From: a bacterium HR35
GTDB lineage: Bacteria; Patescibacteriota; Minisyncoccia; UBA6257; HR35
DNA: 64,000 nt
Reading direction: 5' to 3'
Assembly: GCA_002898235.1 (NCBI GenBank)
Contig: BEIL01000001.1
Span: 16,034-80,033 of the forward strand
Shown: positions 36,324-52,480 of the stretch, piece by piece
Position numbering within the stretch: position 1 is the first letter of the stretch
Layout of the letters: each line of letters begins with the position of its first letter
The notes under the pieces: model-generated
Databases searched by the model: none
The model's input: the letters and a program-made list of their open reading frames with translations, nothing else
Told to the model about the DNA's origin: nothing
Program-made: the position numbers and the translations under genes

Positions 36324-37604
36324 ATGAAAAAACAAATAGTAATTTTAGGAGGAGGATTTGGTGGTGTTTATACTTTAAAATATTTGCATAAATTTTTTCA
36401 TAAACGCGGACTAAGGCAGACTGAACGCGGACTTACGCAGACAAGTATTAAATTAGTATTGGTGAATAGAAAAAATTATTTTATTTTTACGCCCTTGCTT
36501 CATGAAGTTGTTACTGGTGGAGTTTCAATTGATAATGCTTTAGAACCAATAAGAGAAATTATTAAATGCTGTGATTTTGATTTTATTCATGGAGAAGTTG
36601 AGAAAATTAATTTAGAAAATAAAATTGTTTATATTAATAAAGAAAAAGAAAATTATAAAGTTAATTATGATTATTTAGTTATTGCTTTAGGTTCAAAAAC
36701 AAATTATTATAATATTCCCGGTGCTAAAGAATATACTTTTTCGTTAAAAACAATTGATGATGCTATCAGATTGAAAAATCATTTTGTTCATATGTTTGAA
36801 TTAGCGAGTATATCGCAGAGTGAAGCAGCGATTAATAAATATTTAACTTTTGTAATCGTTGGGGGAGGAGCAACTGGAGTTGAGCTTGCTGGTGAAATGA
36901 GTGATTTGTTTTATAAAACTTTTAGCAAATTTTACCCACCAGCTTTAATTTCTCAAGTTAAAATCATCTTAGTTGAAAAGGGTAAAGAATTGATTCCTCA
37001 ATTTTCTCCCAAATTAAGACAAAAAGCATTAGAAAGATTAAAAAAATTAAAAGTTGATGTTAGATTAGAAAGAGGAGTTGTTGAAGTTGGTGAAGATTTT
37101 ATTAAACTTGATGATGGTAATATTATTGAAACAAAAACAGTTATTTGGGCAGCAGGAGTTGAACCAAATTTACCAGAAATCATTGGCAATGTTGAAAAAG
37201 ACAGTAGAGGGAGATTGGTTTTGAATGAATATTTACAAGTAAAAAATTATAATGATGTTTTTGCTATTGGTGATGTTTGTTGTTTTATTCAGGATCAAAA
37301 ACCTTTACCTCAATTAGCTCAAGTTGCAGTTAGACAAGCAAAAACAGTTGCTTTAAATATTAAAAACTCAATTGAAAATAAACCATTAGAAAAGTTTATC
37401 TACAAGCACACAGGCGACTTAATTTCAGTTGGTAGATTTTATGCTCTGGGTGAAATTAAAGGAATTGAATTTTCAGGTTTAATCAGTTGGTTTATTTGGA
37501 AAGGAGTTTATTTAACTAAAATGATTTCCTTTAGGGATCAAGTAAAAACATTTATTGATTGGTTTTTAAACCTATTTTTACCAAGAGATATAACTGAACT
37601 CTAA
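36324..37604 (+). CDS. ndh: type II NADH dehydrogenase / FAD-dependent pyridine-nucleotide-disulfide oxidoreductase
   Basis: Two Rossmann motifs, VILGGGFGGVY and IVGGGATGVELAGE. Contains a roughly 14 aa atypical insert RGLRQTERGLTQTS just after the first motif. Confidence 0.75.
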   Translation: MKKQIVILGGGFGGVYTLKYLHKFFHKRGLRQTERGLTQTSIKLVLVNRKNYFIFTPLLHEVVTGGVSIDNALEPIREIIKCCDFDFIHGEVEKINLENKIVYINKEKENYKVNYDYLVIALGSKTNYYNIPGAKEYTFSLKTIDDAIRLKNHFVHMFELASISQSEAAINKYLTFVIVGGGATGVELAGEMSDLFYKTFSKFYPPALISQVKIILVEKGKELIPQFSPKLRQKALERLKKLKVDVRLERGVVEVGEDFIKLDDGNIIETKTVIWAAGVEPNLPEIIGNVEKDSRGRLVLNEYLQVKNYNDVFAIGDVCCFIQDQKPLPQLAQVAVRQAKTVALNIKNSIENKPLEKFIYKHTGDLISVGRFYALGEIKGIEFSGLISWFIWKGVYLTKMISFRDQVKTFIDWFLNLFLPRDITEL

Positions 37605-40342: not shown

Positions 40343-41632
40343 ATGAGTTGGCTTATGGAAAAAAAGTATATTTTGATAGTATTATTTTTGCTTTTCTTGG
40401 GGCTAGTTTTAATTAAGCAAACAAAAATTAGAGCAGAAATCGCTTATTTTTATCCTCAAAGTTGTTTAGGAAGTTTTATTAATCCTGAAAAAGCCCAAGG
40501 AAAGCCCGAAGTTGATAATCCTGATTTAATAAATGAATCAAATTCTGCTGTTTATTTAGGCGGTTTTAAAGAAATTTATTGTGGAAATTTTCAAGGACCA
40601 GAAGTACAAGGCGAAATAAAGAAAATAACATTACATTTTAATTGGATTGTTACTAAAGAAAGGAGAGAAGCAGTTCTAACTGAACCAACCTCAACAAACG
40701 ATTCAAATATTTTAGAAAAAATTATTCCTCCGAAAACAATAGAAATAATACCAGCAACTCCAACAACTGAAACAGCACCTTTACCAAATACCACTCCAAC
40801 ACCAGAAGCAACCTCGACACCTCAGTCATCTTTTAACACGGATTCACGCGGATTATTATTACACGGATATACACGGAAATTATTTAACCTAGATAAAAAT
40901 TATCTAGATATCTTATTTTGGTGGAAAACAACTTTTGCTGAAGAAATGGCAACACCAATAGAATCGACAACACCTACAACCTTAACAACAACTCCATCAG
41001 AAGCTCAAAATCAATCAACTGAAACTCAATCAATAATAATTACAACAACTCCTACATCTACAGAAAATCAAACCGAAACAACCTCTTCTACTACAAGTAC
41101 TGAAGCATTGACTACTCCAACAACCTCAGAAACAACTTCATTAACAACCTCAACTCCTCCTAAAACTCTATTTGAAGTCCATTACACTTTGGATGGTGAA
41201 AATTGGACTTATCTTGGAGATATTAAAACGCAGACTAACGCAGACAACACGCAGACTAACGCAGACAACTATTTTATTCCCGATGTTTCTTTTGAAATAC
41301 CAGTAAATAATTGGCTTGATATTTCAAAAATTCAAATAAAAATCAATTCTTTACCTGATACTGACTACTATCTTTATTTAGAATCAATGTGGTTTGAAGT
41401 TGAATATGAACTTCCGCAAGCAACATCAACTATTTCAGAAATAACAAATTTTGTTGGTGGCACTATAAGTTCTTTAACAGAAAATTTTTCTAATGATACT
41501 TCTACATTGTCAGAAACCTCAACATCTTATGGCGAAGATGATGAAGAAATTTTAACTCCAACAAATTTAGAAAATGCTACTCCTACTCCTCATTACCTCC
41601 TCTTAAACAAAGAAAATATACTAAAGAAATAA
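40343..41632 (+). CDS. secreted Thr/Ser/Pro-rich (mucin-like) surface protein
   Basis: N-terminal signal anchor and long T/S/P low-complexity linkers. Contains in-frame short repeats (40836-40878 and 41228-41269). Confidence 0.4.
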   Translation: MSWLMEKKYILIVLFLLFLGLVLIKQTKIRAEIAYFYPQSCLGSFINPEKAQGKPEVDNPDLINESNSAVYLGGFKEIYCGNFQGPEVQGEIKKITLHFNWIVTKERREAVLTEPTSTNDSNILEKIIPPKTIEIIPATPTTETAPLPNTTPTPEATSTPQSSFNTDSRGLLLHGYTRKLFNLDKNYLDILFWWKTTFAEEMATPIESTTPTTLTTTPSEAQNQSTETQSIIITTTPTSTENQTETTSSTTSTEALTTPTTSETTSLTTSTPPKTLFEVHYTLDGENWTYLGDIKTQTNADNTQTNADNYFIPDVSFEIPVNNWLDISKIQIKINSLPDTDYYLYLESMWFEVEYELPQATSTISEITNFVGGTISSLTENFSNDTSTLSETSTSYGEDDEEILTPTNLENATPTPHYLLLNKENILKK

Positions 41633-41988: not shown

Positions 41989-42336
41989 ATGAAAACAAAA
42001 TCTTTTAAGGAATTAATAGTTTGGCAAAGAGCAAAAGAATTAGCAATAGAAGTATATAAATTAACATCAAAATTTCCAAAGTCAGAGCTTTTTGGATTAA
42101 CAAACCAAATGAGAAGAGCTTCAATTTCTATTTCTTCAAATATTGCTGAAAGTTATCATCGCTTCCATTCTAAAGAGAAAAAACAATTTTTAGCAGTTGC
42201 CTTTGGCTCTGGAGCAGAATTAGAAAGCCAAATTGAAATTGCTAAATCACTTTTTCCAAATTTAGATTATTCAAAAGTAGAAACATTACTTGCAGATATA
42301 ATGAAAATTTTAAATAAAATTATTAATAAAAAATGA
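41989..42336 (+). CDS. four-helix-bundle protein of the 23S rRNA intervening-sequence protein / Avd family
   Basis: WQRAKELAIEVYKLTSKFPKSELFGLTNQMRRASISISSNIAEG is the characteristic motif of this family. The stop overlaps the next start (ATGA). Confidence 0.7.
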   Translation: MKTKSFKELIVWQRAKELAIEVYKLTSKFPKSELFGLTNQMRRASISISSNIAESYHRFHSKEKKQFLAVAFGSGAELESQIEIAKSLFPNLDYSKVETLLADIMKILNKIINKK

Positions 42337-45300
42337 AAAAAAATCATCCAAAATTATCTACTAGATTCTACTTACTATCTACTAGATTCTTAGTTTTATT
42401 ACTTTTAATTTCAATGTTCTTTTTCGGTTATCCTGTTATTTGGAAAAATCCAAGAATACCACCAAAGATTAAGGAAGCACAGGCGGCAATTAGTTTTATT
42501 GGAAGCGTTGAAGGATCAGCAGCAAACGGCGGCGATGTCACGCTTAGCCTTTCCGGTCTTGGACTCCAAGAAGGCGACCTCGTCATCGTGGCCTATGCCA
42601 TTGGAGATAATGATAACGTGAATTTCAACATGGCAATACTATCGCCAGCTGGTTATACCGAGGTTGCCGACTTACATTCCGATGATACACAAGATGTTGA
42701 TCTCGGTGTTTACTGGAAAGTTATGGGAGCCACACCAGACACATCTGTTACGGTAGATGGTTTAGGAGGAACTGATGCTTCAGTGGCAGCAGTGGCAATG
42801 GCTTTCCGGGGTGTTGATCCCGCAACTCCAATGGATGTGATTCCAACTACGGCAACTGGCATTAATACTATGCATCCCAATCCCCCAGCAATAGACTATG
42901 TAAGCACCGGTGTCTGGACAGTTATTGCGGGAGCAAGTGGGCATGCGCTTAATTTAGCTAATACTAACAATCCCTATACTTTCCCATCAGGATATACAAC
43001 AGATAATGTTCAACGACCTGAAAATGATACAAGCGATGTGACAGTTGGATTGGGATACAGAACAAATCCCGCTGATCCCGAGGATCCTGGCGTTATGACA
43101 CACAGCGGAACTGACAGCACAAGTTACTCGTGGGCTGCAGTTACAATTGCTTTAAGACCCAAACCACCTTCTACTTTTAATCAATCAGCTTATAGATTTT
43201 TTAATAATCTTGATTCAACTGATGTTGGTTCTCCTTTAGCCAATCAAAATACTCCAGCAAGCTTAACTTCAGCTGGTCAAGCATTTAGATTGAGATTACT
43301 TATTCATGTAGGAACATCAAATCTGTTGGAAAATGAACAAAGTTTCAAACTTCAATTTGGTACCTCTACTGGTTCATCTTGTACTTCTTCACCACCTGCT
43401 TCTTGGGCTGATGTTACAACTTCAACACCAATAGCTTTTAATGACAACCCAACACCAGCTGATGGTGCTACTTTAACTGCTAATACTAATGACCCAACTC
43501 ATGGAGCTGATATTATTGTCAATCAAACCTATGAAGAATTAAATAATTTTACAAACTCTGTCTCTTCAATTAACGCTGGCGAAGATGGTAAATGGGACTT
43601 TTCATTAAAAGATAATGGTGCTCCAGCTGGTACTACTTATTGTTTAAGAGTTGTAAAAGCTGATGGAACTTTATTAGATACTTATTCAGTTATTCCTCAA
43701 ATTACAACCGCCGCAGCTCCAATTTTATCAGCTTATAGATTTTTTAATAATTTAGATTCAACTGATGTTGGTTCTCCTTTAGCTAATCAAGATACAGCTG
43801 CAACTTTAACTTCAGCTGGTCAAGCTTTTAGATTAAGACTTTTACTTCATTTACCCTCGGGTTTAAATTTCAATTCTCCCACTTCTTCAAATAATTTAAT
43901 AGAATCTGGATTAATTCCAGCTGGCTCTGGTGGTGGTAGAATTAGAATAGCTGCGCCTACTCCCAATAGATTATACTTGGTTTATTATGATATGACTAAT
44001 CTAGATTTAAGATTCTGTCGAAGTACTAATGGTGGAGTGAGTTGGAGTTGTAATGCAATTGAATCGACTGGTGATGTAGGCGTAACTCCGGATATTTATG
44101 CTCTTGATGAAAACAATATATTTATTACTCATAGAGATGCAACAAATGGTAATTTAAGATTTTGTAAAAGTAGTAATGGTGGTTTAAATTTTTCTTGTTC
44201 TATTCTTGAAGCTGGTTGGCAGGGGTTTGATTCTTCTATTAAAGCTATTTCAACTTCAACAATTTTTGTTTCTTACGCTCCAGCTCCAGCAAATTTTAGC
44301 TATTCAATTTTGAGATTTTGCCGAACAACTGATGGTGGTAACACCTGGAATTGCTCAGATGTTGAAGGAAATACAACAACTCAATATGGTTGGTATTCAT
44401 CTTTAGATGCAGTTGATTCTAATAATATTTATATTGCCCACTATGATGGGATCAATTTAGATTTAAGATTTTGTCGGACTTCAAACGGTGGAACAACTTG
44501 GAATTGTGGTGTAATTGAAACTACAGGTGATATAGGAAGAAAACCATCTATAAAAGCTTTTAACAATAATTATATTTATATAGCACATCGAGACGAAACA
44601 AATAATCAATTAAGATTTTGTCGAACTACAGATGGAGGAACTAGTTGGAATTGTAATGCAATAGAAATCGGAGGTTTTTCTTCTTCTTTAAAAATAGTTG
44701 ATAAAGATGTAGTTTATATAGCCCATTTTGATTTTACAAATGCTTCTATAAGACTTTGTAATACTAATAATGGTGGACAAACTTGGAGCTGTTCTACAAT
44801 TGCTAATGCTCCCCCTACTCTTACTTCTGGTGAAAATTTAAGTCTTTCTTTAGATTTACTTGATCCTTATATGATTTATGTAGCTTATGGTTTTACTACT
44901 GATTCTTCTAATGAGGTAAGATTGTATAAATATACAGGGAATGATTTTTTTAAACTTCAATATTCAGTTATGTCTGGAACTTGTGATACTTCATTTTCTG
45001 GTGAAGTTTATAATGATGTAGGTTTCGATACCCCTATTGCTTTTTATAATAATAACACTACAAGTGATGCCTCGACTCCAACTACTAACACCAATGATCC
45101 AACTCATGGTACTGATACAATTGTTTATCAAACTTATAAAGAAAAAAAATTTTTTACAAATAGAACGAACATTTTTTCGGGAAGTGATGGTTTATGGGAT
45201 TTTGTTTTGAGAGATAATAACGCTCCTTCAAATACAACTTATTGTTTAAGAGTTGTAAAAGCAGATGGAAGCTTACTTCAGGGTTACAATGTTATCCCTC

Positions 45301-45797
45301 AAATTACAACTGCAGCAGCTGCACCGATTACTTGTACTTTTTCAGCAACTTCAACTTCATTTTCAAGTTTATCTCCTTCAGCTGTTTCAACTTCTTCTCC
45401 TGATATAACTATTACTGTTACTTCTTCAGCTGGTTTTATAATTTCTGTAAATGATGCAGGTAATGGAACTAACCCAGGTCTTTATAAATCAACCTCGCCA
45501 ACATATCTAATTCCTTCTCCAAATTCTTCTTATACAGCAACTGCTACTTTAGTGGCTGGGGTAGATGGTTATGGAATTCAAGCAACAACTACAAATTCAA
45601 ATATAAGTATTAATCCAAGATACAATGTTAGTGGAGATACTGTTGGAGGACTAACTACAACAACTATTACTTTGGCAAGTTCTTCAGTTGCTGTTTCTTC
45701 GGCTCAAATTACAATTAAACATAAAGCAGCAGTTTCAAGTTTAGCACCAACAGGCAATTATCAAGATACAATAACATATAGCTGTACAAGTCCATAG
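42333..45797 (+). CDS. large surface protein with N-terminal signal anchor, a compositionally atypical N-terminal domain, duplicated YRFFNNLDSTDVGSPLANQ segments, a BNR/Asp-box beta-propeller and a C-terminal domain shared with the next gene
   Basis: Six BNR-like blades (LRFCRSTNGGVSWSC, LRFCKSSNGGLNFSC, LRFCRTTDGGNTWNC, LRFCRTSNGGTTWNC, LRFCRTTDGGTSWNC, IRLCNTNNGGQTWSC). 1154 aa. Confidence 0.55.
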   Translation: MKKNHPKLSTRFYLLSTRFLVLLLLISMFFFGYPVIWKNPRIPPKIKEAQAAISFIGSVEGSAANGGDVTLSLSGLGLQEGDLVIVAYAIGDNDNVNFNMAILSPAGYTEVADLHSDDTQDVDLGVYWKVMGATPDTSVTVDGLGGTDASVAAVAMAFRGVDPATPMDVIPTTATGINTMHPNPPAIDYVSTGVWTVIAGASGHALNLANTNNPYTFPSGYTTDNVQRPENDTSDVTVGLGYRTNPADPEDPGVMTHSGTDSTSYSWAAVTIALRPKPPSTFNQSAYRFFNNLDSTDVGSPLANQNTPASLTSAGQAFRLRLLIHVGTSNLLENEQSFKLQFGTSTGSSCTSSPPASWADVTTSTPIAFNDNPTPADGATLTANTNDPTHGADIIVNQTYEELNNFTNSVSSINAGEDGKWDFSLKDNGAPAGTTYCLRVVKADGTLLDTYSVIPQITTAAAPILSAYRFFNNLDSTDVGSPLANQDTAATLTSAGQAFRLRLLLHLPSGLNFNSPTSSNNLIESGLIPAGSGGGRIRIAAPTPNRLYLVYYDMTNLDLRFCRSTNGGVSWSCNAIESTGDVGVTPDIYALDENNIFITHRDATNGNLRFCKSSNGGLNFSCSILEAGWQGFDSSIKAISTSTIFVSYAPAPANFSYSILRFCRTTDGGNTWNCSDVEGNTTTQYGWYSSLDAVDSNNIYIAHYDGINLDLRFCRTSNGGTTWNCGVIETTGDIGRKPSIKAFNNNYIYIAHRDETNNQLRFCRTTDGGTSWNCNAIEIGGFSSSLKIVDKDVVYIAHFDFTNASIRLCNTNNGGQTWSCSTIANAPPTLTSGENLSLSLDLLDPYMIYVAYGFTTDSSNEVRLYKYTGNDFFKLQYSVMSGTCDTSFSGEVYNDVGFDTPIAFYNNNTTSDASTPTTNTNDPTHGTDTIVYQTYKEKKFFTNRTNIFSGSDGLWDFVLRDNNAPSNTTYCLRVVKADGSLLQGYNVIPQITTAAAAPITCTFSATSTSFSSLSPSAVSTSSPDITITVTSSAGFIISVNDAGNGTNPGLYKSTSPTYLIPSPNSSYTATATLVAGVDGYGIQATTTNSNISINPRYNVSGDTVGGLTTTTITLASSSVAVSSAQITIKHKAAVSSLAPTGNYQDTITYSCTSP

Positions 45798-46655: not shown

Positions 46656-47534
46656 ATGAAAAAATATCTCTTATTTATTTTTTTACTAGCTTCTATTTTA
46701 TATTTACTAGTTACTAATTCTGTTTTTGCTTTAACTGTTGGACCTGCTAAATTAGAATTTACAACTGATCCGGGGCAAGTTTTAGAATTTAGTTTGTTTG
46801 TTAGAAATGATAGTGATTATGATTCTAAGTATCAAATTATTGTTGAAGGGTTTACTGAAGAAAATGGAGAAAGAAAATATATTACCAATCCGCCTGAAGC
46901 AAGTTGGGTTGAAGCACCAAAGGATATTTTTATTAAAGCCAAAGAAGATACAAATGTTCCTATAAAAATTAATGTTCCTAAAGATGCTCCGCCAGGAGGT
47001 CATTTTTTAGTTTTATGGGTAAGCACTAAACCTGAGGGAGGTCAGGTTGCAATTGTTACCAGAGTTGGAGCTTTAGTTTTTATTAATGTTTCAGGAAAGG
47101 CTATTTATAAGGCTTATATTAGTGAGCTAAAAGCACCAAAAATTGCTTTTGATTTTCCAGTAAAATTTTCTTATGTAATCAAAAATGAAGGCAACACCTA
47201 TATAACACCTAAAGGCAATATTGAAATTAAAAATATTTTCGGAAGATTAATTGCTGATTTGCCTATAAATCCAAGGGAATTACAGCTTTTACCCAATACC
47301 TCAAAAAATTTTGAACAAGAATGGAAAGCACCGTTTGCTTTTGGAATTTATAAAGCTATTTTTAATTTAGAATATGCCAATTCAAGAAACTCTTTGAATT
47401 ATTGGTTTGTTTTTATTCATCTTAAAGCATTAATTATTTTGATGATTATCTTTGTTTTTGTTGTTTTTGTTTTACCAAGATTAATTAAAAAATATAATGA
47501 ATGGGTAATTAAAAGATATATGCAAAATAAATGA
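46656..47534 (+). CDS. secreted beta-sandwich protein with C-terminal TM anchor
   Basis: Signal peptide, predicted beta-rich ectodomain, C-terminal hydrophobic helix followed by basic residues (LPRLIKKYNEW). Confidence 0.35.
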   Translation: MKKYLLFIFLLASILYLLVTNSVFALTVGPAKLEFTTDPGQVLEFSLFVRNDSDYDSKYQIIVEGFTEENGERKYITNPPEASWVEAPKDIFIKAKEDTNVPIKINVPKDAPPGGHFLVLWVSTKPEGGQVAIVTRVGALVFINVSGKAIYKAYISELKAPKIAFDFPVKFSYVIKNEGNTYITPKGNIEIKNIFGRLIADLPINPRELQLLPNTSKNFEQEWKAPFAFGIYKAIFNLEYANSRNSLNYWFVFIHLKALIILMIIFVFVVFVLPRLIKKYNEWVIKRYMQNK

Positions 47535-48581
47535 ATGAATTTAAAAAATTTTTTCAATGTTGTTTTAATAATTTTCTTCTCGTTTTTATTACTTTATGCT
47601 TTTAATTATTTAAAATCTGCAGGTGTAACTATTAAAGCTTTTGTGCCTGGAGTTTGTGGCAATAATCTTAAAGAACCAGGAGAAGAATGTGATGGTCCTG
47701 ATTTAGGAGGTCAAAGCTGCGTTTCTTTAGGTTATTCAGGAGGAACTTTGTCTTGTAATTCTAATTGTACTTTTAATGCTTCACAATGCACTATCTCCCC
47801 GCCAAGTGGAGGAGGCGGAGGCGGTGGAGCATATATACCTCCTTATGGAACAGTTATTCTTTCAGGAAGAGCCCAACCAAATTCTGATGTTACTTTAATT
47901 TCAGATGGCCAAATAAGAACAATTATCAAAGCTGATACTGATGGAAAATTTAAATTTACTCTTTCCAACCTAACCCCAGGCAATTATATTTTTACTTTAT
48001 ATGCTGAAGATACTGAGGGAAGAAGGACAAGCTTACATTCAGTTCCAGCAGTAGTTACCGCAGGTCTTACAATTGAAATAGGTAATATTTTTCTTTCACC
48101 AACAATTGATATTGATAAAATACAAGTTAAGCGTGGAGATATTTTAAGAATTTTTGGTCAAACAGCTCCTGATTCTAATGTTTTGATTGTTGTTTCTTCT
48201 GAAGAAGAATTATATTTTCAAACTCAAGCAGAAAAAGATGGAAGTTATTTATATGCCTTAGATACTACAATTTTAGATTATGGCCAGCATTTTACAAAAT
48301 CAAGATCAATTTTAGCCAATCAATTAGTTAGTTCTTTTTCAAAAGCTTTAGCATTTCAGGTTTCAACAACTTCGGTAGTTAAAAAACCAACAAAATGTCC
48401 ATTAAAAGGTGATTTAAACAATGATTGCAGAGTAAATTTGATTGATTTTTCAATTGCTGCTTATTGGTATAAAAGAAAATTAAGTCCAAATTTTGCTAAA
48501 ATTGAAAAAGAGAAATTAAACGGAGATGGAAAGGTCGATTTGGTTGATTTTAGTATTATGGCGTATTGGTGGACGGGATAA
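47535..48581 (+). CDS. dockerin-containing surface protein (N-terminal signal anchor, Cys-rich repeat, Gly linker, Ig-like region, C-terminal dockerin)
   Basis: Two dockerin-type Ca-binding segments, DLNNDCRVNLIDFSIAAYW and LNGDGKVDLVDFSIMAYW. A CGNNLKEPGEECDGPDLGGQSC Cys-rich repeat. Confidence 0.55.
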   Translation: MNLKNFFNVVLIIFFSFLLLYAFNYLKSAGVTIKAFVPGVCGNNLKEPGEECDGPDLGGQSCVSLGYSGGTLSCNSNCTFNASQCTISPPSGGGGGGGAYIPPYGTVILSGRAQPNSDVTLISDGQIRTIIKADTDGKFKFTLSNLTPGNYIFTLYAEDTEGRRTSLHSVPAVVTAGLTIEIGNIFLSPTIDIDKIQVKRGDILRIFGQTAPDSNVLIVVSSEEELYFQTQAEKDGSYLYALDTTILDYGQHFTKSRSILANQLVSSFSKALAFQVSTTSVVKKPTKCPLKGDLNNDCRVNLIDFSIAAYWYKRKLSPNFAKIEKEKLNGDGKVDLVDFSIMAYWWTG

Positions 48582-48584
48582 TAG

Positions 48585-48800
48585 ATGTTTCGCGAGTTGG
48601 CTTTTATATATCGCACACACGCCTATGAGCACCGGCACTCAACTTCCTCCAGCGGCAAGTTGGTGCCTCGTGGTCTCGGCTCAAAAACTTTGCCATCTGC
48701 TGAAAGCAGACTGGCAAAGACCAAGCTTTTTAAGCCTCCGACACGTGCTCTACGGCGTGGTGCTCGACAAAATGTCTGCGTCAGTCTGCGTTTTATACAA
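48585..48800. other. 220 bp GC-rich (about 50% GC) intergenic element with internal inverted repeats
   Basis: Sharp composition jump versus flanks. Hairpin potential in GGCACTCAACTT...AAGTTGGTGCC and GCAGACTG...CAGTCTGC. Ends with GTCTGCGTCAGTCTGCGTT, the reverse complement of the ACGCAGAC motif seen in in-frame insertions elsewhere. Confidence 0.5.
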
Positions 48801-48802
48801 AA

Positions 48803-49621
48803 ATGGCAAAAATTTATTTACAAATAGATAAGGAAGTGAATACTAATTATTTCACAGTTCCTATTTATCTTGACACCGAAGGTGAATCAGTTAATGCTTT
48901 TGAAGTGAAGATAAAAACATCTAACAATTTGATTTTTAGAGATTATTTAGAAAAAGATTCAATTATTAGTTATTGGATTGAAAAACCTTCAATTAAAGAA
49001 AATATTTTGTCATTTTCAGGAATTACTCCAGGTGGTTATATTGGTAAAAAGGGTTTGTTGGTAAATTTAATTTTTGAAGCTAAACAAAACGGACAAGCTT
49101 TTATTGAAATTTTACCTTCATCACAAATTTTACTAAACGATGGTTTAGGAACTAAGGCAGGATTAAAAACAGATAGATATGAATTTTTGTTAAATATTAC
49201 TCAAACTCAAAAAATAAGCATTGAAGACCGTTATCCTCCAGAACCATTTAAAATTTATCCTCAAAGAAATAAGGAAATTTTTAACAATAAGTATTACATT
49301 ATTTTTGAGGCTAAAGATAAACAATCAGGTATAGCTTATTATGAAGCTGCTGAAGTTCCTATCTGTATAAATCTAGGTTTAACCTGCGAAAATCCTCGTT
49401 TTGAAAAAGTCTCATCTCCATATCTTTTAAAAGATCAATCTTTAAGAAGCTATATTTATGTTAAAGCAGTTGATCGAGCAGGAAATGAAAGAATTGAAAT
49501 TTTAAAACCACAAAGATTGTTTTTAGCTGAAGAAATTTTGTTTTTCTTTATTTTTAGTAGTTTGTTTATTTTAGGAATCATTTTTTATAATAAAATTAAA
49601 TGGCATTTAAGAATAAAATAA
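48803..49621 (+). CDS. cohesin-like domain protein with C-terminal TM anchor; N-terminal signal peptide apparently missing
   Basis: Cohesin-like N-domain aligns with that of the next gene (AKIYLQIDKEVNTNYFTVPIYLDT vs ASIYLSPAQKTVNVGDSFSIVVYVES, then LVNLIFEAKQNGQAFIEIL...LLNDGLG). An Ig-like ...SGIAYY...VDRAGN domain. The ORF begins exactly at the mature-domain boundary, immediately after the GC-rich element. Confidence 0.45.
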   Translation: MAKIYLQIDKEVNTNYFTVPIYLDTEGESVNAFEVKIKTSNNLIFRDYLEKDSIISYWIEKPSIKENILSFSGITPGGYIGKKGLLVNLIFEAKQNGQAFIEILPSSQILLNDGLGTKAGLKTDRYEFLLNITQTQKISIEDRYPPEPFKIYPQRNKEIFNNKYYIIFEAKDKQSGIAYYEAAEVPICINLGLTCENPRFEKVSSPYLLKDQSLRSYIYVKAVDRAGNERIEILKPQRLFLAEEILFFFIFSSLFILGIIFYNKIKWHLRIK

Positions 49622-51303
49622 TTTTATTTTTAGGGATATTAAACTTTTTAGTTTTTAAAGGAGTTTTCGCTGCCTCAATTTATCTTTCTCCAGCACAAAA
49701 AACAGTTAATGTCGGTGATAGTTTTAGTATTGTTGTTTATGTTGAATCTTCTGATCAAGCAATGAATGCTGTTTCTTTTAGATTAAGCTTTCCTAAGGAT
49801 TTACTTAAGGTTAATAATGTTTCTAAGGCTGGAAGTATTATTAATTTTTGGGTTCAAGAACCTCAAGTTTCAGCTGAAGAAATTTTTACTGAAGGAGTAG
49901 TTTTAAATCCTGGTTATCAAGGAAGTGCTGGAAAAATTTTAACAATTAATTTTAAAGCTTTAAAAGAGGGAACTGCTGATTTAAATTTTATTTCTGGTAG
50001 CGTTTTAGCTAATGATGGGCAGGGAACAAATATTTTAAAAAGTTTAAATTCAGCAACAATTAAAATTAGACCTAAAGTAAAAGAAGAAAAAACAAAAGAT
50101 GTTTTTCAACAAACTTCTTTTATCCCAGCTCCAATAATTATTTCTCCAACGCATCCTAGCCAAAATAAATGGTATAACATAAAAGAAGCCAAGTTAGTAT
50201 GGAATTTACCAGAAAATATTAACGAAGTAAGAACCTTACTTGGACAAAATCCAAATGCTTATCCTCAAGTAAGTTATATTCCACCAATAAATTCGAAAGA
50301 TGTTACTACCCCCTATGATGGTGTTTGGTATTTTTCTCTTCAATTTTGTAATGAAACTAGTTGTTCAGATATAGGAAGATATAAACTCCAAATAGATACA
50401 ACACCTCCAACTGTAAATTTGAAAGAAATTCAGAGAGAAGATTTAACTGACCCAAGAGTAAAAATTTATATTGATGCTAAAGACGATCTTTCTGGAATTG
50501 ATTATTATTTAATAAATATAAATGGAAAAACTGAAAAATGGATTGATGATGGTACTCATATTTATCAACTAAAAGATTTAAAACCTGGTCAATATGAAAT
50601 TTCAGTTAAAGTTTTTGACAAAGCAGGGAATAATAATGAGGCTAAATTAAGTTTTGAAATAAAACCATTAGAACCACCAGAAATTACTGATTATCCAAAA
50701 GAAGTTGTTTTGGGTGAACCAGTTATTATTAAAGGAAGAACAAAGTATCCAAATGTCGATGTTTATGTTTATTTAGAGCATCAAAAGGGCGCAAAAGTTG
50801 TTAATAATACTAAAACAAAAGAAAATGGTGAATTTGAAATAATGGTTAATAATTTATCAGCTGGAGTTTATAAAGCTTATGCTCAATTTAGGGATGAAAT
50901 AGGTCGAGAGTCTTTGCCGAGTGATTATGTAAATATTGTTGTAAGAGTGCCTTATCTTATTGAAGTTTTTGGCTTGAAAATAAATATATTTAATGTTCTT
51001 ATTCTGTTTATTAGTTTAATCATAGTTTTAATCCTAGGAATCACATATTATCTTAGAAAACTTAATCAAATAAGAGAAAGAGTAGAAAAAGAAACAAAAG
51101 ATTTGCATAATGCAATCCATAATTTTATAAAATATCTTCATTCAAGATTTGAAGAACAAATAAAACTTTTACAAGAAACAAAGAATAAAAGAGAATTAAC
51201 CGAAGAAGAAAACAAAATTCTACATGAGCTTGAAGAAAAATTAGATAAATTAAATAAGTATTTACATAAAGAAATTAAAGATATTGAAGAGATTTTTAAG
51301 TAA
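49600..51303 (+). CDS. cohesin-like domain surface protein with signal peptide, Ig-like domains, C-terminal TM anchor and cytoplasmic coiled coil
   Basis: Cohesin pattern TVNVGDSFSIVVYVES..AVSFRLSFPKDLLKV..GKILTINFKALKEGTADLNFISGSVLANDGQG. A later LSGIDYY...FDKAGN Ig-like motif. TM helix ILFISLIIVLILGI near the C-terminus. Confidence 0.55.
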   Translation: MAFKNKIILFLGILNFLVFKGVFAASIYLSPAQKTVNVGDSFSIVVYVESSDQAMNAVSFRLSFPKDLLKVNNVSKAGSIINFWVQEPQVSAEEIFTEGVVLNPGYQGSAGKILTINFKALKEGTADLNFISGSVLANDGQGTNILKSLNSATIKIRPKVKEEKTKDVFQQTSFIPAPIIISPTHPSQNKWYNIKEAKLVWNLPENINEVRTLLGQNPNAYPQVSYIPPINSKDVTTPYDGVWYFSLQFCNETSCSDIGRYKLQIDTTPPTVNLKEIQREDLTDPRVKIYIDAKDDLSGIDYYLININGKTEKWIDDGTHIYQLKDLKPGQYEISVKVFDKAGNNNEAKLSFEIKPLEPPEITDYPKEVVLGEPVIIKGRTKYPNVDVYVYLEHQKGAKVVNNTKTKENGEFEIMVNNLSAGVYKAYAQFRDEIGRESLPSDYVNIVVRVPYLIEVFGLKINIFNVLILFISLIIVLILGITYYLRKLNQIRERVEKETKDLHNAIHNFIKYLHSRFEEQIKLLQETKNKRELTEEENKILHELEEKLDKLNKYLHKEIKDIEEIFK

Positions 51304-51322
51304 TTAATTTATAATATAAATA

Positions 51323-52480
51323 ATGCTTAATCCAGAATTAAAATTGAATCCAAAAATTTTTGATGAAGATATTGAGCAAAAGCCAATTAGAGATGGTTAT
51401 AGTGATGCTTTGGTTGAGCTTGGAGAAAAAAATCCTGATGTTGTTGTTTTAACTGCTGATTTAGCTGAATCAACCAGAGCTCATAAATTTGCCGAAAAAT
51501 TTCCTGAAAGATTTATTGAATGCGGAGTGGCTGAACAAAATATGGCTGGTATTGCTGCTGGTTTAGGTGTAAGTGGTAAAATTGCTTTTATTTCCTCTTA
51601 TGCAACTTTTTCTCCTGGCAAAAATTGGGAAACAATTAGAACAACAATAATTTATAATGATTCAAATGTAAAAATTGCCGGTCATCATTCAGGAATTGTT
51701 ACTGGTCCTGATGGTGCCACTCATCAAGCAACCGAAGATATAGCTATTATGAGATGCTTACCGAATGTTAGAATAATTTCTCCTTGTGACTTTTGGGAAG
51801 CAAAAAAAGCAACTTTATATTCAGCAGAAGTTTATGGTCCTTTTTATATTAGATATGTAAGAGATAAAACACCTATAATAACAACAGAAGAAACACCTTT
51901 TAGATTTGGAAAAATTGAAGAATTCTGGATACCAAACACAGACCATACACGGACTATACACGGACAGAACAGACAAAATAATAAGTCCGAACAGTCTGAG
52001 TCTAGTCCGAATCAGTCCGTGTTAAGTCCAAACAAGTCCGTGTCTAGTCCGAACAAGTCCGTGAGTATGCAGAATAACGCAGATAAAAATATAGTTGCTA
52101 TTTTTGCAACTGGACATCTAGTTTATCAGGCACTTTTGGCTGCTAAAGAATTAGAAGAGGAGGGAATAGATGTTTATGTTTTGAATGTTCATACAATAAA
52201 ACCACTTGATGTTGAAAAAATTTTTGAAATTGCAAAAAAAGTTAGAGGAATAGTTACTTTAGAAGACCACCAAGTTCAAGGAGGAATGGGAAGCGCAATT
52301 AGTGAAGCTTTAATGAATATTGATTTTCAAAAACAATATGGCCTTTTTTCTGTTCCTCCGATTAAATTTTTAGGACTTCAAAATACTTTTGGTGAATCGG
52401 GCAAACCCAATGAATTAATTCAAAAATATGGAATGGATAAAGAGGCAGTAAAAAAGGCGGTTTATGAGTTTCTTAAATGA
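51323..52480 (+). CDS. transketolase, C-terminal subunit of a split enzyme, with a roughly 50 aa low-complexity in-frame insertion
   Basis: Pyrimidine-binding and C-terminal transketolase domains (FIECGVAEQNMAGIAAG, GPDGATHQATEDIAIMR). Insertion PNTDHTRTIHGQNRQNNKSEQSESSPNQSVLSPNKSVSSPNKSVSMQNNADKN at nt 51935-52090. Confidence 0.8.
   Translation: MLNPELKLNPKIFDEDIEQKPIRDGYSDALVELGEKNPDVVVLTADLAESTRAHKFAEKFPERFIECGVAEQNMAGIAAGLGVSGKIAFISSYATFSPGKNWETIRTTIIYNDSNVKIAGHHSGIVTGPDGATHQATEDIAIMRCLPNVRIISPCDFWEAKKATLYSAEVYGPFYIRYVRDKTPIITTEETPFRFGKIEEFWIPNTDHTRTIHGQNRQNNKSEQSESSPNQSVLSPNKSVSSPNKSVSMQNNADKNIVAIFATGHLVYQALLAAKELEEEGIDVYVLNVHTIKPLDVEKIFEIAKKVRGIVTLEDHQVQGGMGSAISEALMNIDFQKQYGLFSVPPIKFLGLQNTFGESGKPNELIQKYGMDKEAVKKAVYEFLK

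What the first reader, a model, noticed from the sequence alone, without database searches (positions are those of the whole stretch)
48585..48800. 220 bp GC-rich structured element replacing the signal-peptide region of a cohesin gene
GC jumps from about 27% to about 50% for 220 bp between the dockerin gene stop and the first cohesin gene. The cohesin ORF starts precisely at its mature-domain boundary, whereas its paralog downstream carries a normal signal peptide. This suggests the element inserted into or replaced the 5' end. The element has internal inverted repeats and ends with GTCTGCGTCAGTCTGCGTT, the reverse complement of the ACGCAGAC repeat found in in-frame insertions elsewhere in the window. 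Candidates are a miniature mobile element, a structured small RNA, or a foreign DNA remnant.
Basis: seen in the sequence. Interest (0 to 1): 0.6.

Follow-up and report, generated by a model that had tools for sequence, protein, structure and literature searches.

The report
GC-rich nested-hairpin insertion between two genes
A 210-base, GC-rich, hairpin-forming, non-coding piece of DNA sits in what was once a 1-4 base junction between two cell-surface protein genes of a hot-spring Parcubacteria (CPR) bacterium; it looks like a patchwork of small palindromic repeat modules and did not remove the downstream gene's signal peptide.

Summary
Window 48601-48800 is 51% GC in a 28.5% GC genome (bacterium HR35). 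It folds far better than shuffles on both strands, has no Rfam match, and ends in two GTCTGCGT units that recur in in-frame arrays elsewhere in the window.

Relatives L008, L010, L011 and L021 have the dockerin stop 0-4 nt from the cohesin-1 ATG, so the element is an insertion. But it did not replace a signal peptide. Signal-less cohesin-1 (MAKIY...) occurs with both empty and occupied sites, and signal-bearing cohesin-1 also occurs with both.

The junction is an insertion hotspot with different occupants in different genomes:
- the window's mosaic;
- a roughly 100-nt "module C";
- extra hairpins;
- a PDDEXK_3 gene flanked by inverted 10-nt-unit arrays.

The window's framework helix and hairpin-1 recur at the same site in L006 and L014, at 94% identity over 51 nt where the adjacent protein is 64% identical. 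Module C also occurs at tRNA spacers and elsewhere.

Best reading: a BIME/MITE-like composite of nested GC-rich palindromic repeat modules, co-transcribed as a stable RNA stem. A dedicated small RNA is not excluded. Copy number in HR35 could not be measured. Interest is moderate to low.

The parts
48579..48584 (+). Stop codon TAA of the dockerin-bearing gene (47535-48581) followed by TAG. This is the left flank of the insertion.
   Evidence: Dockerin_1 and Big_6 hits. The same TAA/TAG TAG/TAA context is present in all syntenic loci.
48585..48612 (+). Left end of the insert, ATGTTTCGCGAGTTGGCTTTTATATAT. TCGCGAGTTGGCT resembles the left terminal stem of module C in relatives (CTCGCGAGTYGGCT). 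GGCTTTTAT.AT is shared with L006.
   Evidence: The pattern GGCTTTTATNATNGCACNCANNCCTA matches only L006 among the 6 loci held at that point.
48613..48632 (+). 5' arm of the framework helix (GCACACACGCCTATGAGCAC). It pairs with 48745-48763.
   Evidence: Folds. The equivalent arms in L014 and L006 pair through different sequences. nhmmer matches window 48607-48683 to L014 4144-4067, E = 3e-10.
48634..48667 (+). Hairpin 1 (GGCACTCAACTTCC-TCCAGC-GGCAAGTTGGTGCC).
   Evidence: Window 48620-48670 is 94% identical over 51 nt to L014 4129-4079 at the same syntenic site. The adjacent dockerin protein is only 64% identical.
48678..48736 (+). Hairpin 2 (GGCTCAAAAACTTTGCCATCTGCT-GAA-AGCAGACTGGCAAAG...TTTTTAAGCC). 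It occupies the position that module C holds in L014 and L006, and no relative was found for it.
   Evidence: Fold. There are 0 matches to its 28-nt apical stem (loop bases left free) in viral, genome and metagenome collections. nhmmer finds it only in the window and L001. The Logan contig L001 begins at 48713, inside this hairpin.
48745..48774 (+). 3' arm of the framework helix plus a conserved tail (GTGCTC-TAC-GGCGTG-GTGC-TCGACAAAATG).
   Evidence: CGTGGTRCTCGN{3,4}AAATG is unique in the window (0 expected) and occurs twice in L006. L007 and L017 carry the same motif with an extra hairpin inserted between GTGCTC and TACGG.
48774..48791 (-). Two 8-nt units, GTCTGCGT CA GTCTGCGT (reverse complement of ACGCAGAC), forming the right end of the insert.
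   Evidence: The layout mirrors the right end of the PDDEXK_3 cassette at the same site in L002 (ATTCGTGG CA ATTCGTGTGG | TTTAAAAATGG).
48792..48802 (+). Native spacer TTTTATACAAAA directly upstream of the cohesin-1 ATG.
   Evidence: It is conserved next to unrelated inserts in L007 (TTTTATGAAAAATGG), L002 (TTTAAAAATGG) and L005 (TTATAAAAATG).
48803..49621 (+). Cohesin-1-like gene (272 aa, HRbin35_00065) with no signal peptide and a C-terminal transmembrane segment.

Best explanation
The element is a composite insertion built from small GC-rich palindromic repeat modules. It is comparable to a BIME or nested-MITE cluster. It accumulated in a gene junction that was originally 0-4 nt long, in an operon of surface proteins (209 aa / 292 aa / dockerin protein / cohesin-1 / cohesin-2).

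Anatomy of the window copy:
- An outer "framework" imperfect palindrome (48613-48632 pairing with 48745-48763) carries two further hairpins at its apex.
- The right end consists of two GTCTGCGT units. These belong to the same 10-11-nt-period repeat family that forms in-frame arrays elsewhere in this genome and flanks PDDEXK_3 cassettes in relatives.

Shown:
- It is an insertion relative to empty sites.
- The site is a hotspot with at least four kinds of occupant.
- Its modules recur in other genomes in different combinations.
- One partner module (module C) is dispersed to unrelated loci.
- The pairing is maintained by compensatory changes.
- It has nothing to do with the missing signal peptide.

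Inferred:
- The modules spread as DNA by an unidentified enzyme that recognises hairpins or terminal repeats.
- They are GC-rich because the hairpins must be stable at hot-spring temperature.
- In the cell the element is simply read through as part of the operon mRNA. There its stem of about -83 kcal/mol would uncouple translation of cohesin-1 from the upstream gene and act as a REP-like stabiliser or processing point.
For: 1. Empty sites. L008 (2503 to 2505), L010 (2996 to 3001), L011 (2997 to 3001) and L021 (10000 to 10001) have the two genes abutting.

2. Hotspot. The same junction holds different occupants:
- the window mosaic;
- module C alone (L003, 122 nt);
- framework plus module C plus two tandem 3' modules (L006, 282 nt);
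- module C plus an extra hairpin plus the 3' framework (L007, 240 nt);
- framework plus hairpin-1 plus module C (L014, 360 nt);
- a small GC hairpin (L022, 68 nt);
- a PDDEXK_3 ORF bounded by a perfect 10-nt terminal inverted repeat CCACACGAAT / ATTCGTGTGG and inverted unit arrays (L002, L005).

3. Modules are far more conserved than their flanks.
- Hairpin-1 is 94% identical between the window and L014, where the adjacent dockerin protein is 64% identical.
- Module C is 97% identical among L003, L006 and L007, where flanking DNA is 79-87% identical.

4. Dispersal of module C. It occurs between tRNA-Arg and tRNA-Ile (L017), next to tRNA-Pro (L018) and tRNA-Met (L020), and between an S41 peptidase gene and the L9 gene (L016). 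It is on two contigs of one MAG (L014 and L018).

5. Nesting. L007 and L017 have a roughly 33-nt hairpin inserted exactly between GTCTC... correction: between GTGCTC and TACGG, which are contiguous in the window. Related loci show similar GC hairpins lying inside 10-nt-unit arrays.

6. Structure is maintained.
- The framework helix is formed by different sequences in the window, L014 and L006.
- The module C outer helix has 4 pairs with compensatory changes, and 1 of 500 shuffles reaches its covariation score.

7. Nothing else explains it. There is no Rfam family at permissive thresholds. There is no promoter or terminator consensus inside it. It has no coding relatives.
Against: - Only one copy of the window's own modules is present in the 64-kb window.
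- Hairpin-2 has no copy anywhere I could search.
- The HR35 genome itself was not in the searchable genome collection, so multi-copy status, the key property of a mobile repeat, is unproven for this element.
- No clean terminal inverted repeats or target-site duplication could be defined for the window copy.
- No transposase is associated with it. There is no RAYT-like or PDDEXK_3 gene in the window.
- Framework plus hairpin-1 were found only at this one syntenic site (window, L006, L014). That would also fit a locus-specific functional RNA retained by selection.
- Module C has an invariant core and variable ends. This is the reverse of the usual MITE pattern and looks more like a functional RNA or a protein-binding site.
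Confidence: 0.55

Rival explanations
1. It is a structured RNA element, not selfish DNA. It would be either a small RNA gene or a cis-acting intercistronic RNA domain (a processing, stability or translation-control element for the cohesin genes). It is GC-rich because all structured RNAs of an AT-rich thermophile are GC-rich, and its apical hairpins are free to vary.
For: - Its GC content equals that of the tRNA cluster.
- It has very strong, non-random folding.
- The framework helix is preserved through different sequences.
- Hairpin-1 is 94% conserved next to a 64%-identical protein.
- All five syntenic copies are co-oriented with the operon.
- The related L017 composite is co-oriented inside a tRNA operon, where RNase P/Z processing would release it.
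- Module C has a roughly 50-nt invariant core with a covarying closing stem.
Against: - The site is empty in four related genomes, including both signal-peptide types.
- The content is a different mosaic in every genome.
- The best-conserved module (C) is absent from the window.
- The window's largest hairpin is unique.
- Both strands fold equally well.
- No promoter-like or terminator-like site lies inside it.
- There is no Rfam match.
- The same junction can instead hold a PDDEXK_3 gene cassette.
Confidence: 0.27
2. It is a decayed, cargo-less remnant of the repeat-array cassette that carries a PDDEXK_3 nuclease gene at the same site in relatives L002 and L005. On this reading it is a footprint or non-autonomous derivative of that specific element, later invaded by GC hairpins.
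For: - The right end [unit CA unit] directly abuts the native TTTA...AAAAATGG spacer, exactly as in L002.
- An imperfect inverted partner AAAGCAGACTGGCAAAGAC (48703-48721) faces GTCTGCGTCAGTCTGCGTT, 79% complementary.
- Cargo-less inverted arrays exist in the window transketolase at the position where L002 has a PDDEXK_3 domain.
- GC hairpins nested inside arrays are seen in L021 and L022.
Against: - There are no recognisable units at the left end.
- Only two good units are present.
- There is no trace of a PDDEXK_3 coding sequence in the window.
- The framework and hairpin-1 are shared with L006 and L014, which have no arrays at this site.
Confidence: 0.12
3. It is foreign DNA, a pseudogene remnant or an assembly chimera.
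For: - The GC content is very different from the genome.
- An 80-codon open frame spans it.
- A Logan contig from the same run ends inside it at 48713.
Against: - There is no similarity to phage, plasmid or viral DNA.
- There are no real protein relatives: 1.84 billion representatives gave one low-complexity hit at E = 5e-5, and searches gave none.
- The Logan contig independently confirms the right 90 nt joined to cohesin-1.
- Homologous modules sit between the same two genes in three other assemblies.
Confidence: 0.04

Closest known systems
BIMEs (bacterial interspersed mosaic elements) built from REP palindromic units in Enterobacteria and Pseudomonas
   Same: - They are extragenic, non-coding and GC-rich relative to their surroundings.
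- They are made of imperfect palindromes combined with other short conserved motifs in variable mosaics.
- They lie between co-transcribed genes, are transcribed as part of the mRNA, and are known to stabilise upstream mRNA or modulate downstream expression (established knowledge).
- A Y1/RAYT-type transposase gene exists in one relative (L010).
   Different: - High copy number is not shown.
- There is no conserved GTAG-type 5' tetranucleotide.
- No RAYT was found in the window by a motif scan.
- The modules are longer (34-100 nt) and nested within each other rather than in tandem.
- It is associated with 10-11-nt unit arrays, which BIMEs lack.
MITEs, including nested MITEs and Rickettsia palindromic elements (RPEs)
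   Same: - Small non-coding palindromic insertions with presence/absence polymorphism at precise sites.
- The outer stem of module C behaves like terminal inverted repeats.
- The companion unit arrays insert in-frame into protein genes, as RPEs do.
   Different: - No defined terminal inverted repeats or target-site duplication for the window copy.
- No parental IS with matching ends.
- The module C core is invariant while its ends vary, which is the opposite of typical MITEs.
GC-rich islands that mark structural RNA genes in AT-rich (hyper)thermophile genomes. This is my recollection of GC-content-based ncRNA screens; it was not checked in a paper here.
   Same: It is a sharp GC island of tRNA-like composition in a 28.5% GC hot-spring genome, with a strongly stable fold.
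   Different: - It is absent from the orthologous site in several relatives.
- Its content is a mosaic.
- There is no Rfam family and no transcription signals.

Membership tests
MITE | Short (under ~500 bp) and non-coding | tested here: met
   About 207 nt. The only long + strand frames have no meaningful relatives: none, and one low-complexity hit at E = 5e-5.
MITE | Terminal inverted repeats | tested here: inconclusive
   The window's left end TCGCGAGTTGGCT has no clean right-end partner. The relative module C has a covarying terminal stem. The L002 cassette has a perfect 10-nt terminal inverted repeat.
MITE | Target-site duplication | tested here: inconclusive
   A copy of the start-codon context (AAATGG / ATG) is present at the left junction in L003, L006 and the window. 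No empty site from a close relative is available to define the boundaries.
MITE | Multiple copies per genome | not testable with these tools
   It is single-copy in the 64-kb window. The HR35 genome is not in genome contigs: a scan for its own sequence returned 0. Module C is on 2 contigs of one MAG.
MITE | A related autonomous element with the same ends | tested here: not met
   No transposase or PDDEXK_3 gene with matching ends was found in the window.
REP/BIME | GC-rich imperfect palindromes in extragenic, co-transcribed positions, combined in mosaics | tested here: met
REP/BIME | Tens to hundreds of copies per genome | not testable with these tools
   Only 64 kb of HR35 is available. No second copy is present there.
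REP/BIME | A cognate RAYT (Y1 transposase) and a conserved 5' tetranucleotide next to the hairpin | tested here: not met
   No RAYT motif was found in the six-frame translation of the window. A Y1_Tnp gene is seen only in relative L010. No shared GTAG-like motif was seen in the sequences read.
Any described RNA family (Rfam 15) | Covariance-model score at or near the gathering threshold | tested here: not met
   The best hit is 18.9 bits against a threshold of 67, to a microRNA model. The whole window and 8 loci give only tRNAs. The L017 composite gives nothing below E = 2.
Intrinsic terminator | GC stem with a short loop followed by a T-run | tested here: not met
   0 terminator-like sites in 47400-49800.

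The most novel reading that the evidence does not exclude
The framework, hairpin-1, module C and the 3' motif could together define an undescribed, modular, multi-copy structured RNA class of thermophilic Paceibacteria/Parcubacteria.
- Its core is conserved at 94-100% across genomes whose neighbouring proteins are about 60% identical.
- It is sometimes embedded in tRNA operons.

On this reading the window copy is a functional variant in which hairpin-2 substitutes for module C. Equivalently, it could be a new hairpin-dependent DNA mobility system linked to the 10-nt-unit arrays and PDDEXK_3 cassettes that insert in-frame into essential genes.
Probability: 0.2. Interest if true: 0.65.

Novelty: new variant of a known kind. 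Interest (0 to 1): 0.35.

Why it matters
As far as my two literature searches show, small repeat elements have not been described in CPR/Patescibacteria, whose genomes are regarded as tiny and streamlined.

This locus shows that a gene junction once 0-4 nt long can become a hotspot. It accumulates GC-rich hairpin modules and nuclease-gene cassettes, and the same repeat units are tolerated in-frame inside enzymes.

For annotation, it warns against two mistakes:
- reading GC islands in AT-rich thermophile genomes automatically as RNA genes;
- inferring gene truncation from an adjacent insertion.

If the modules prove to be functional RNAs, they would be a new lineage-specific RNA class.

Tried and rejected
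- Known RNAs. tRNA/tmRNA (ARAGORN) and Rfam at gathering and permissive thresholds gave nothing on the window element. Rfam also gave nothing on the relatives' elements.
- Coding remnant.
  - Two reading frames were searched against 5.8 billion proteins and found no candidates.
  - The 80-aa frame against 1.84 billion representatives gave one low-complexity hit.
  - Pfam gave nothing on the 80-aa ORF.
  - An apparent resemblance of the L006 and window 5' framework translation to RAYT N-termini was checked against the L010 Y1_Tnp N-terminus. Only a YH dipeptide is shared, so I dropped it.
- Phage, plasmid or viral origin: no similarity.
- Exact-pattern scans.
  - Hairpin-2 in the genome and metagenome collections: 0 hits.
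  - The 5' framework pattern in metagenome contigs: 0 hits. It did not even recover L006, so that collection lacks the contig.
- Module C in the window: absent by nhmmer.
- Promoter or terminator reading: no more sites than in shuffles, and none inside the element.
- The CCUCC in the loop of hairpin-1 as an anti-Shine-Dalgarno decoy: not conserved in L014 (GCUCC), so I dropped it.
- The four non-Patescibacteria hits of the module C 20-mer (L012, L013, L015, L019) are 20-23-nt matches in 57-70% GC genomes. I treat them as chance.

Full report
**What is there**

The window comes from "bacterium HR35". The cohesin-1 protein is identical to HRbin35_00065, and the closest named relatives are hot-spring Candidatus Parcubacteria MAGs.

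The window is 28.5% GC. The bin 48601-48800 is 51% GC. Among the 320 200-bp bins, only the tRNA cluster at 62201-62400 matches that.

The island fills the gap between two genes:
- upstream, the stop of a 348-aa protein with Big_6 and Dockerin_1 hits (47535-48581);
- downstream, the ATG (48803) of a 272-aa protein.

The 272-aa protein is a paralog of the next gene, a 567-aa Cohesin-domain protein. Residue 2 of the first aligns with residue 25 of the second, right after the second protein's signal peptide.

The region folds much better than dinucleotide shuffles:
- z = -4.2 on the + strand and -4.6 on the - strand for 241 nt;
- z = -5.6 on both strands for the core 48625-48755.

The 8-mer ACGCAGAC (GTCTGCGT in reverse complement) occurs 8 times in the window against 0.15 expected. 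Two of these form the last 18 nt of the island.

**It is an insertion, but it did not take away a signal peptide**

Orthologs of cohesin-1 were traced to their contigs. The order 209-aa / ~292-aa / dockerin protein / cohesin-1 is conserved.

The distance from the dockerin stop to the cohesin-1 ATG is:

| Locus | Gap |
|---|---|
| L008 | 1 nt |
| L010 | 4 nt |
| L011 | 3 nt |
| L021 | 0 nt |

The ancestral state is therefore a tightly packed junction, and the window's roughly 207 nt are inserted.

The N-terminal alignment shows that all combinations of signal peptide and occupancy exist:

| Cohesin-1 | Site occupied | Site empty |
|---|---|---|
| No signal peptide (MAKIY / MSKIY / MVKVF) | window, L002, L003, L005, L006, L007 | L008, L010, L011 |
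| Signal peptide present | L014 (360 nt), L022 (68 nt) | L021 |

Signal-peptide status and occupancy are independent. The "replacement" interpretation is refuted.

**The junction is a hotspot with mosaic occupants**

Within the HR35 clade (dockerin protein 82-93% identical), every genome has something different at this junction:

- **L003:** a 122-nt GC-rich "module C".
- **L006:** a 5' framework like the window's (GGCTTTTAT.AT.GCAC.CA..CCTA), then module C, then two tandem copies of the 3' motif GRCGTGGTRCTCG...AAATG.
- **L007:** module C, then the 3' framework with an extra hairpin of about 33 nt inserted between GTGCTC and TACGG. These two motifs are contiguous in the window.
- **L002 and L005:** a PDDEXK_3 (PF13366) ORF bounded by inverted arrays of 10-11-nt units. 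L002 has a perfect terminal inverted repeat, CCACACGAAT / ATTCGTGTGG.

In the more distant Ca. Paceibacter MAG (L014), the same junction holds:
- a framework arm;
- the window's hairpin-1, at 94% identity over 51 nt (E = 8e-17), where the adjacent dockerin protein is 64% identical;
- module C;
- a 3' framework-like arm.

The framework helix is kept in the window, L014 and L006 by different sequences. For example, CACGCC/GGCGTG in the window corresponds to TTTCGCG/CGCGAA in L014.

**The partner module is dispersed**

A scan of 185,579 species genomes for a 20-mer of module C gave five Patescibacteria loci. It also gave four 20-23-nt matches in 57-70% GC genomes, which I regard as chance.

Full-length module C lies in several unrelated contexts:
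- between tRNA-Arg and tRNA-Ile in KatS3mg096 (L017), together with a framework fragment and the L007-type hairpin;
- next to tRNA-Pro (L018) and tRNA-Met (L020);
- between an S41 peptidase gene and the ribosomal protein L9 gene (L016).

It is also on two contigs of one MAG.

The eight copies share an invariant core of about 50 nt. Their outer helix shows four pairs with compensatory changes, and 1 of 500 shuffles reaches the covariation score.

Other intergenic regions of related loci hold GC hairpins of about 30 nt with variable stems. Three of them share the loop GAGCTTTGCTC. These hairpins are often nested inside the 10-nt-unit arrays.

**What could not be shown**

- The window's own modules are single-copy in the 64 kb.
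- Hairpin-2 (48678-48736) has no relative. Its 28-nt apical stem, with the loop bases left free, found nothing in the viral, genome or metagenome collections. This also shows that HR35 is not in the genome collection.
- The whole element has no phage or plasmid similarity.
- Copy number in the HR35 genome, the decisive property, remains unknown.
- A Logan contig from the same run (DRR101367) ends at 48713, inside hairpin-2. Another Logan contig ends inside module C (L004). This could reflect repeats, strain polymorphism or a coverage drop. I could not tell which.

**Mechanism**

My best-supported reading (0.55) is that the element is a BIME-like or nested-MITE-like composite of GC-rich palindromic repeat modules.

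The modules reach new sites as DNA by an unidentified activity. Candidates in the lineage are a Y1/RAYT-type transposase (L010) and the PDDEXK_3 nuclease of the array cassettes. Neither is in the window.

The modules preferentially land in or next to existing hairpins, which produces the nesting. Their high GC content is what a hairpin needs at hot-spring temperature. That last point is inference.

There is no promoter-like or terminator-like site inside the element, and the native TTTTATACAAAA-ATG context is intact. The element is therefore most likely read through in the operon mRNA. There a stem of -83 kcal/mol would break translational coupling and could act as a REP-like stabiliser or processing site. 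This is inferred from what is known of REP elements and was not tested.

The main rival (0.27) is a genuine structured RNA. In its favour:
- sequence conservation far above that of the flanks;
- covarying helices;
- co-orientation with neighbouring genes;
- the tRNA-operon copy.

Against it:
- empty sites in relatives;
- a different mosaic in every genome;
- absence of the best-conserved module from the window;
- equal foldability of both strands;
- no Rfam match.

The two readings are not mutually exclusive.

A third reading (0.12) is a decayed array cassette. It rests on the right end [GTCTGCGT CA GTCTGCGT]|TTTA..., which mirrors the L002 cassette end [ATTCGTGG CA ATTCGTGTGG]|TTTA....

Foreign DNA or an assembly artefact is unlikely (0.04).

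**Verdict**

It is a new variant of a known kind, the small palindromic intergenic repeat mosaics, in a lineage where my two literature searches found none described.

On its own it is of moderate to low interest (0.35). The surrounding phenomena are more intriguing than the element itself: the invariant-core module C, and the array/PDDEXK_3 cassettes that insert in-frame into enzymes.

Noticed in passing
window 51936-52080, inside the transketolase C-half gene (51323-52480); compare L002 9281-10768 and L010 6370-6834: An in-frame insertion of about 45-55 aa is made of 8-nt units at 10-11-nt spacing, arranged as an inverted array (ACACGGAC... / ...GTCCGTGT). It sits in the loop after FWIP. At exactly this loop the L002 ortholog carries a ~165-aa in-frame insertion containing a PDDEXK_3 domain. 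L010's ortholog also has a PDDEXK_3 hit between Transket_pyr and Transketolase_C, though its position was not aligned. L006, L008 and L021 have no insertion. This looks like a nuclease-gene cassette, and its empty derivative, tolerated inside an essential enzyme.
   Followed up: partly
window 36404-36442 and 41228-41266: Two further in-frame arrays of four direct units each: ACGCGGAC / AGGCAGAC / ACGCAGAC near the N-terminus of an NDH-2-like ORF, and ACGCAGAC x4 in a large surface-protein ORF. This motif family occurs 8 times in the window against 0.15 expected by chance.
   Followed up: partly
L003 5885-5995, L006 5770-5885, L007 493-605, L014 3960-4075, L016 1160-1275, L017 7365-7480, L018 100-215, L020 485-565: "Module C" is a roughly 100-nt GC-rich element. 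It has an invariant core of about 50 nt (CGCCAGTCCGGCCTTCGCTT.CGCTTCGGCTCGGACATTC.CCCACGGCCTAC) and a covarying closing helix. It is found at unrelated loci, often beside tRNA genes, in at least six Patescibacteria assemblies. It has no Rfam match. It could be an undescribed RNA or a repeat element.
   Followed up: partly
L002 5388-6000 and L005 5319-5968; also L002 2712-2838, 3498-3587, 6814-6896, 7488-7586; L003 2409-2505 and 3015-3075; L021 6100-6460; L022 812-1000: Arrays of ACACGAAT / CAACGAAT units and their inverse are very abundant in relatives. They bracket small ORFs (PDDEXK_3, and short unannotated ORFs in L003 that I did not check), with a perfect 10-nt terminal inverted repeat in L002. 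GC-rich hairpins of about 30 nt, three of them with the loop GAGCTTTGCTC, are nested inside some arrays. The unit sequence differs between genomes: ACGAAT-type in the KatS3mg and JGI MAGs, ACGCAGAC-type in HR35.
   Followed up: partly
window 48803-49621 and orthologs P0002-P0015, P0057: A whole clade of cohesin-1-like proteins lacks the N-terminal signal peptide that more distant homologs have (P0022, P0039, P0061, P0100, L014). The clade keeps the C-terminal transmembrane segment. How the domain reaches the cell surface, if it does, is unclear.
   Followed up: partly
L001 (starts at window 48713) and L004 (starts inside module C of L003): Two independent Logan contigs end inside the GC-rich hairpin elements. 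Possible causes are repeats in the assembly graph, strain-level presence/absence, or a coverage drop at GC-rich hairpins in an AT-rich genome.
   Followed up: no
P0003, P0007, P0100 and P0002 (cohesin-1 orthologs); L003 6171-6372: Several orthologs carry in-frame, low-complexity insertions after WIEKP(H/R)VVE, for example ...SRSEPGGSTT..., and P0002 carries LRFVCVGQRSVCDGLRSICE at another site. The P0003 insertion coincides with a GC-rich island in the gene (L003 6171-6372). The P0002 insertion contains a 22-nt match to the window's GTCTGCGT repeat (L007 1289-1310).
   Followed up: no
window 42401-43200: The N-terminal part of the 1154-aa ORF (42333-45797) is 43-47% GC over about 800 bp, well above the genome mean. 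I did not examine it.
   Followed up: no
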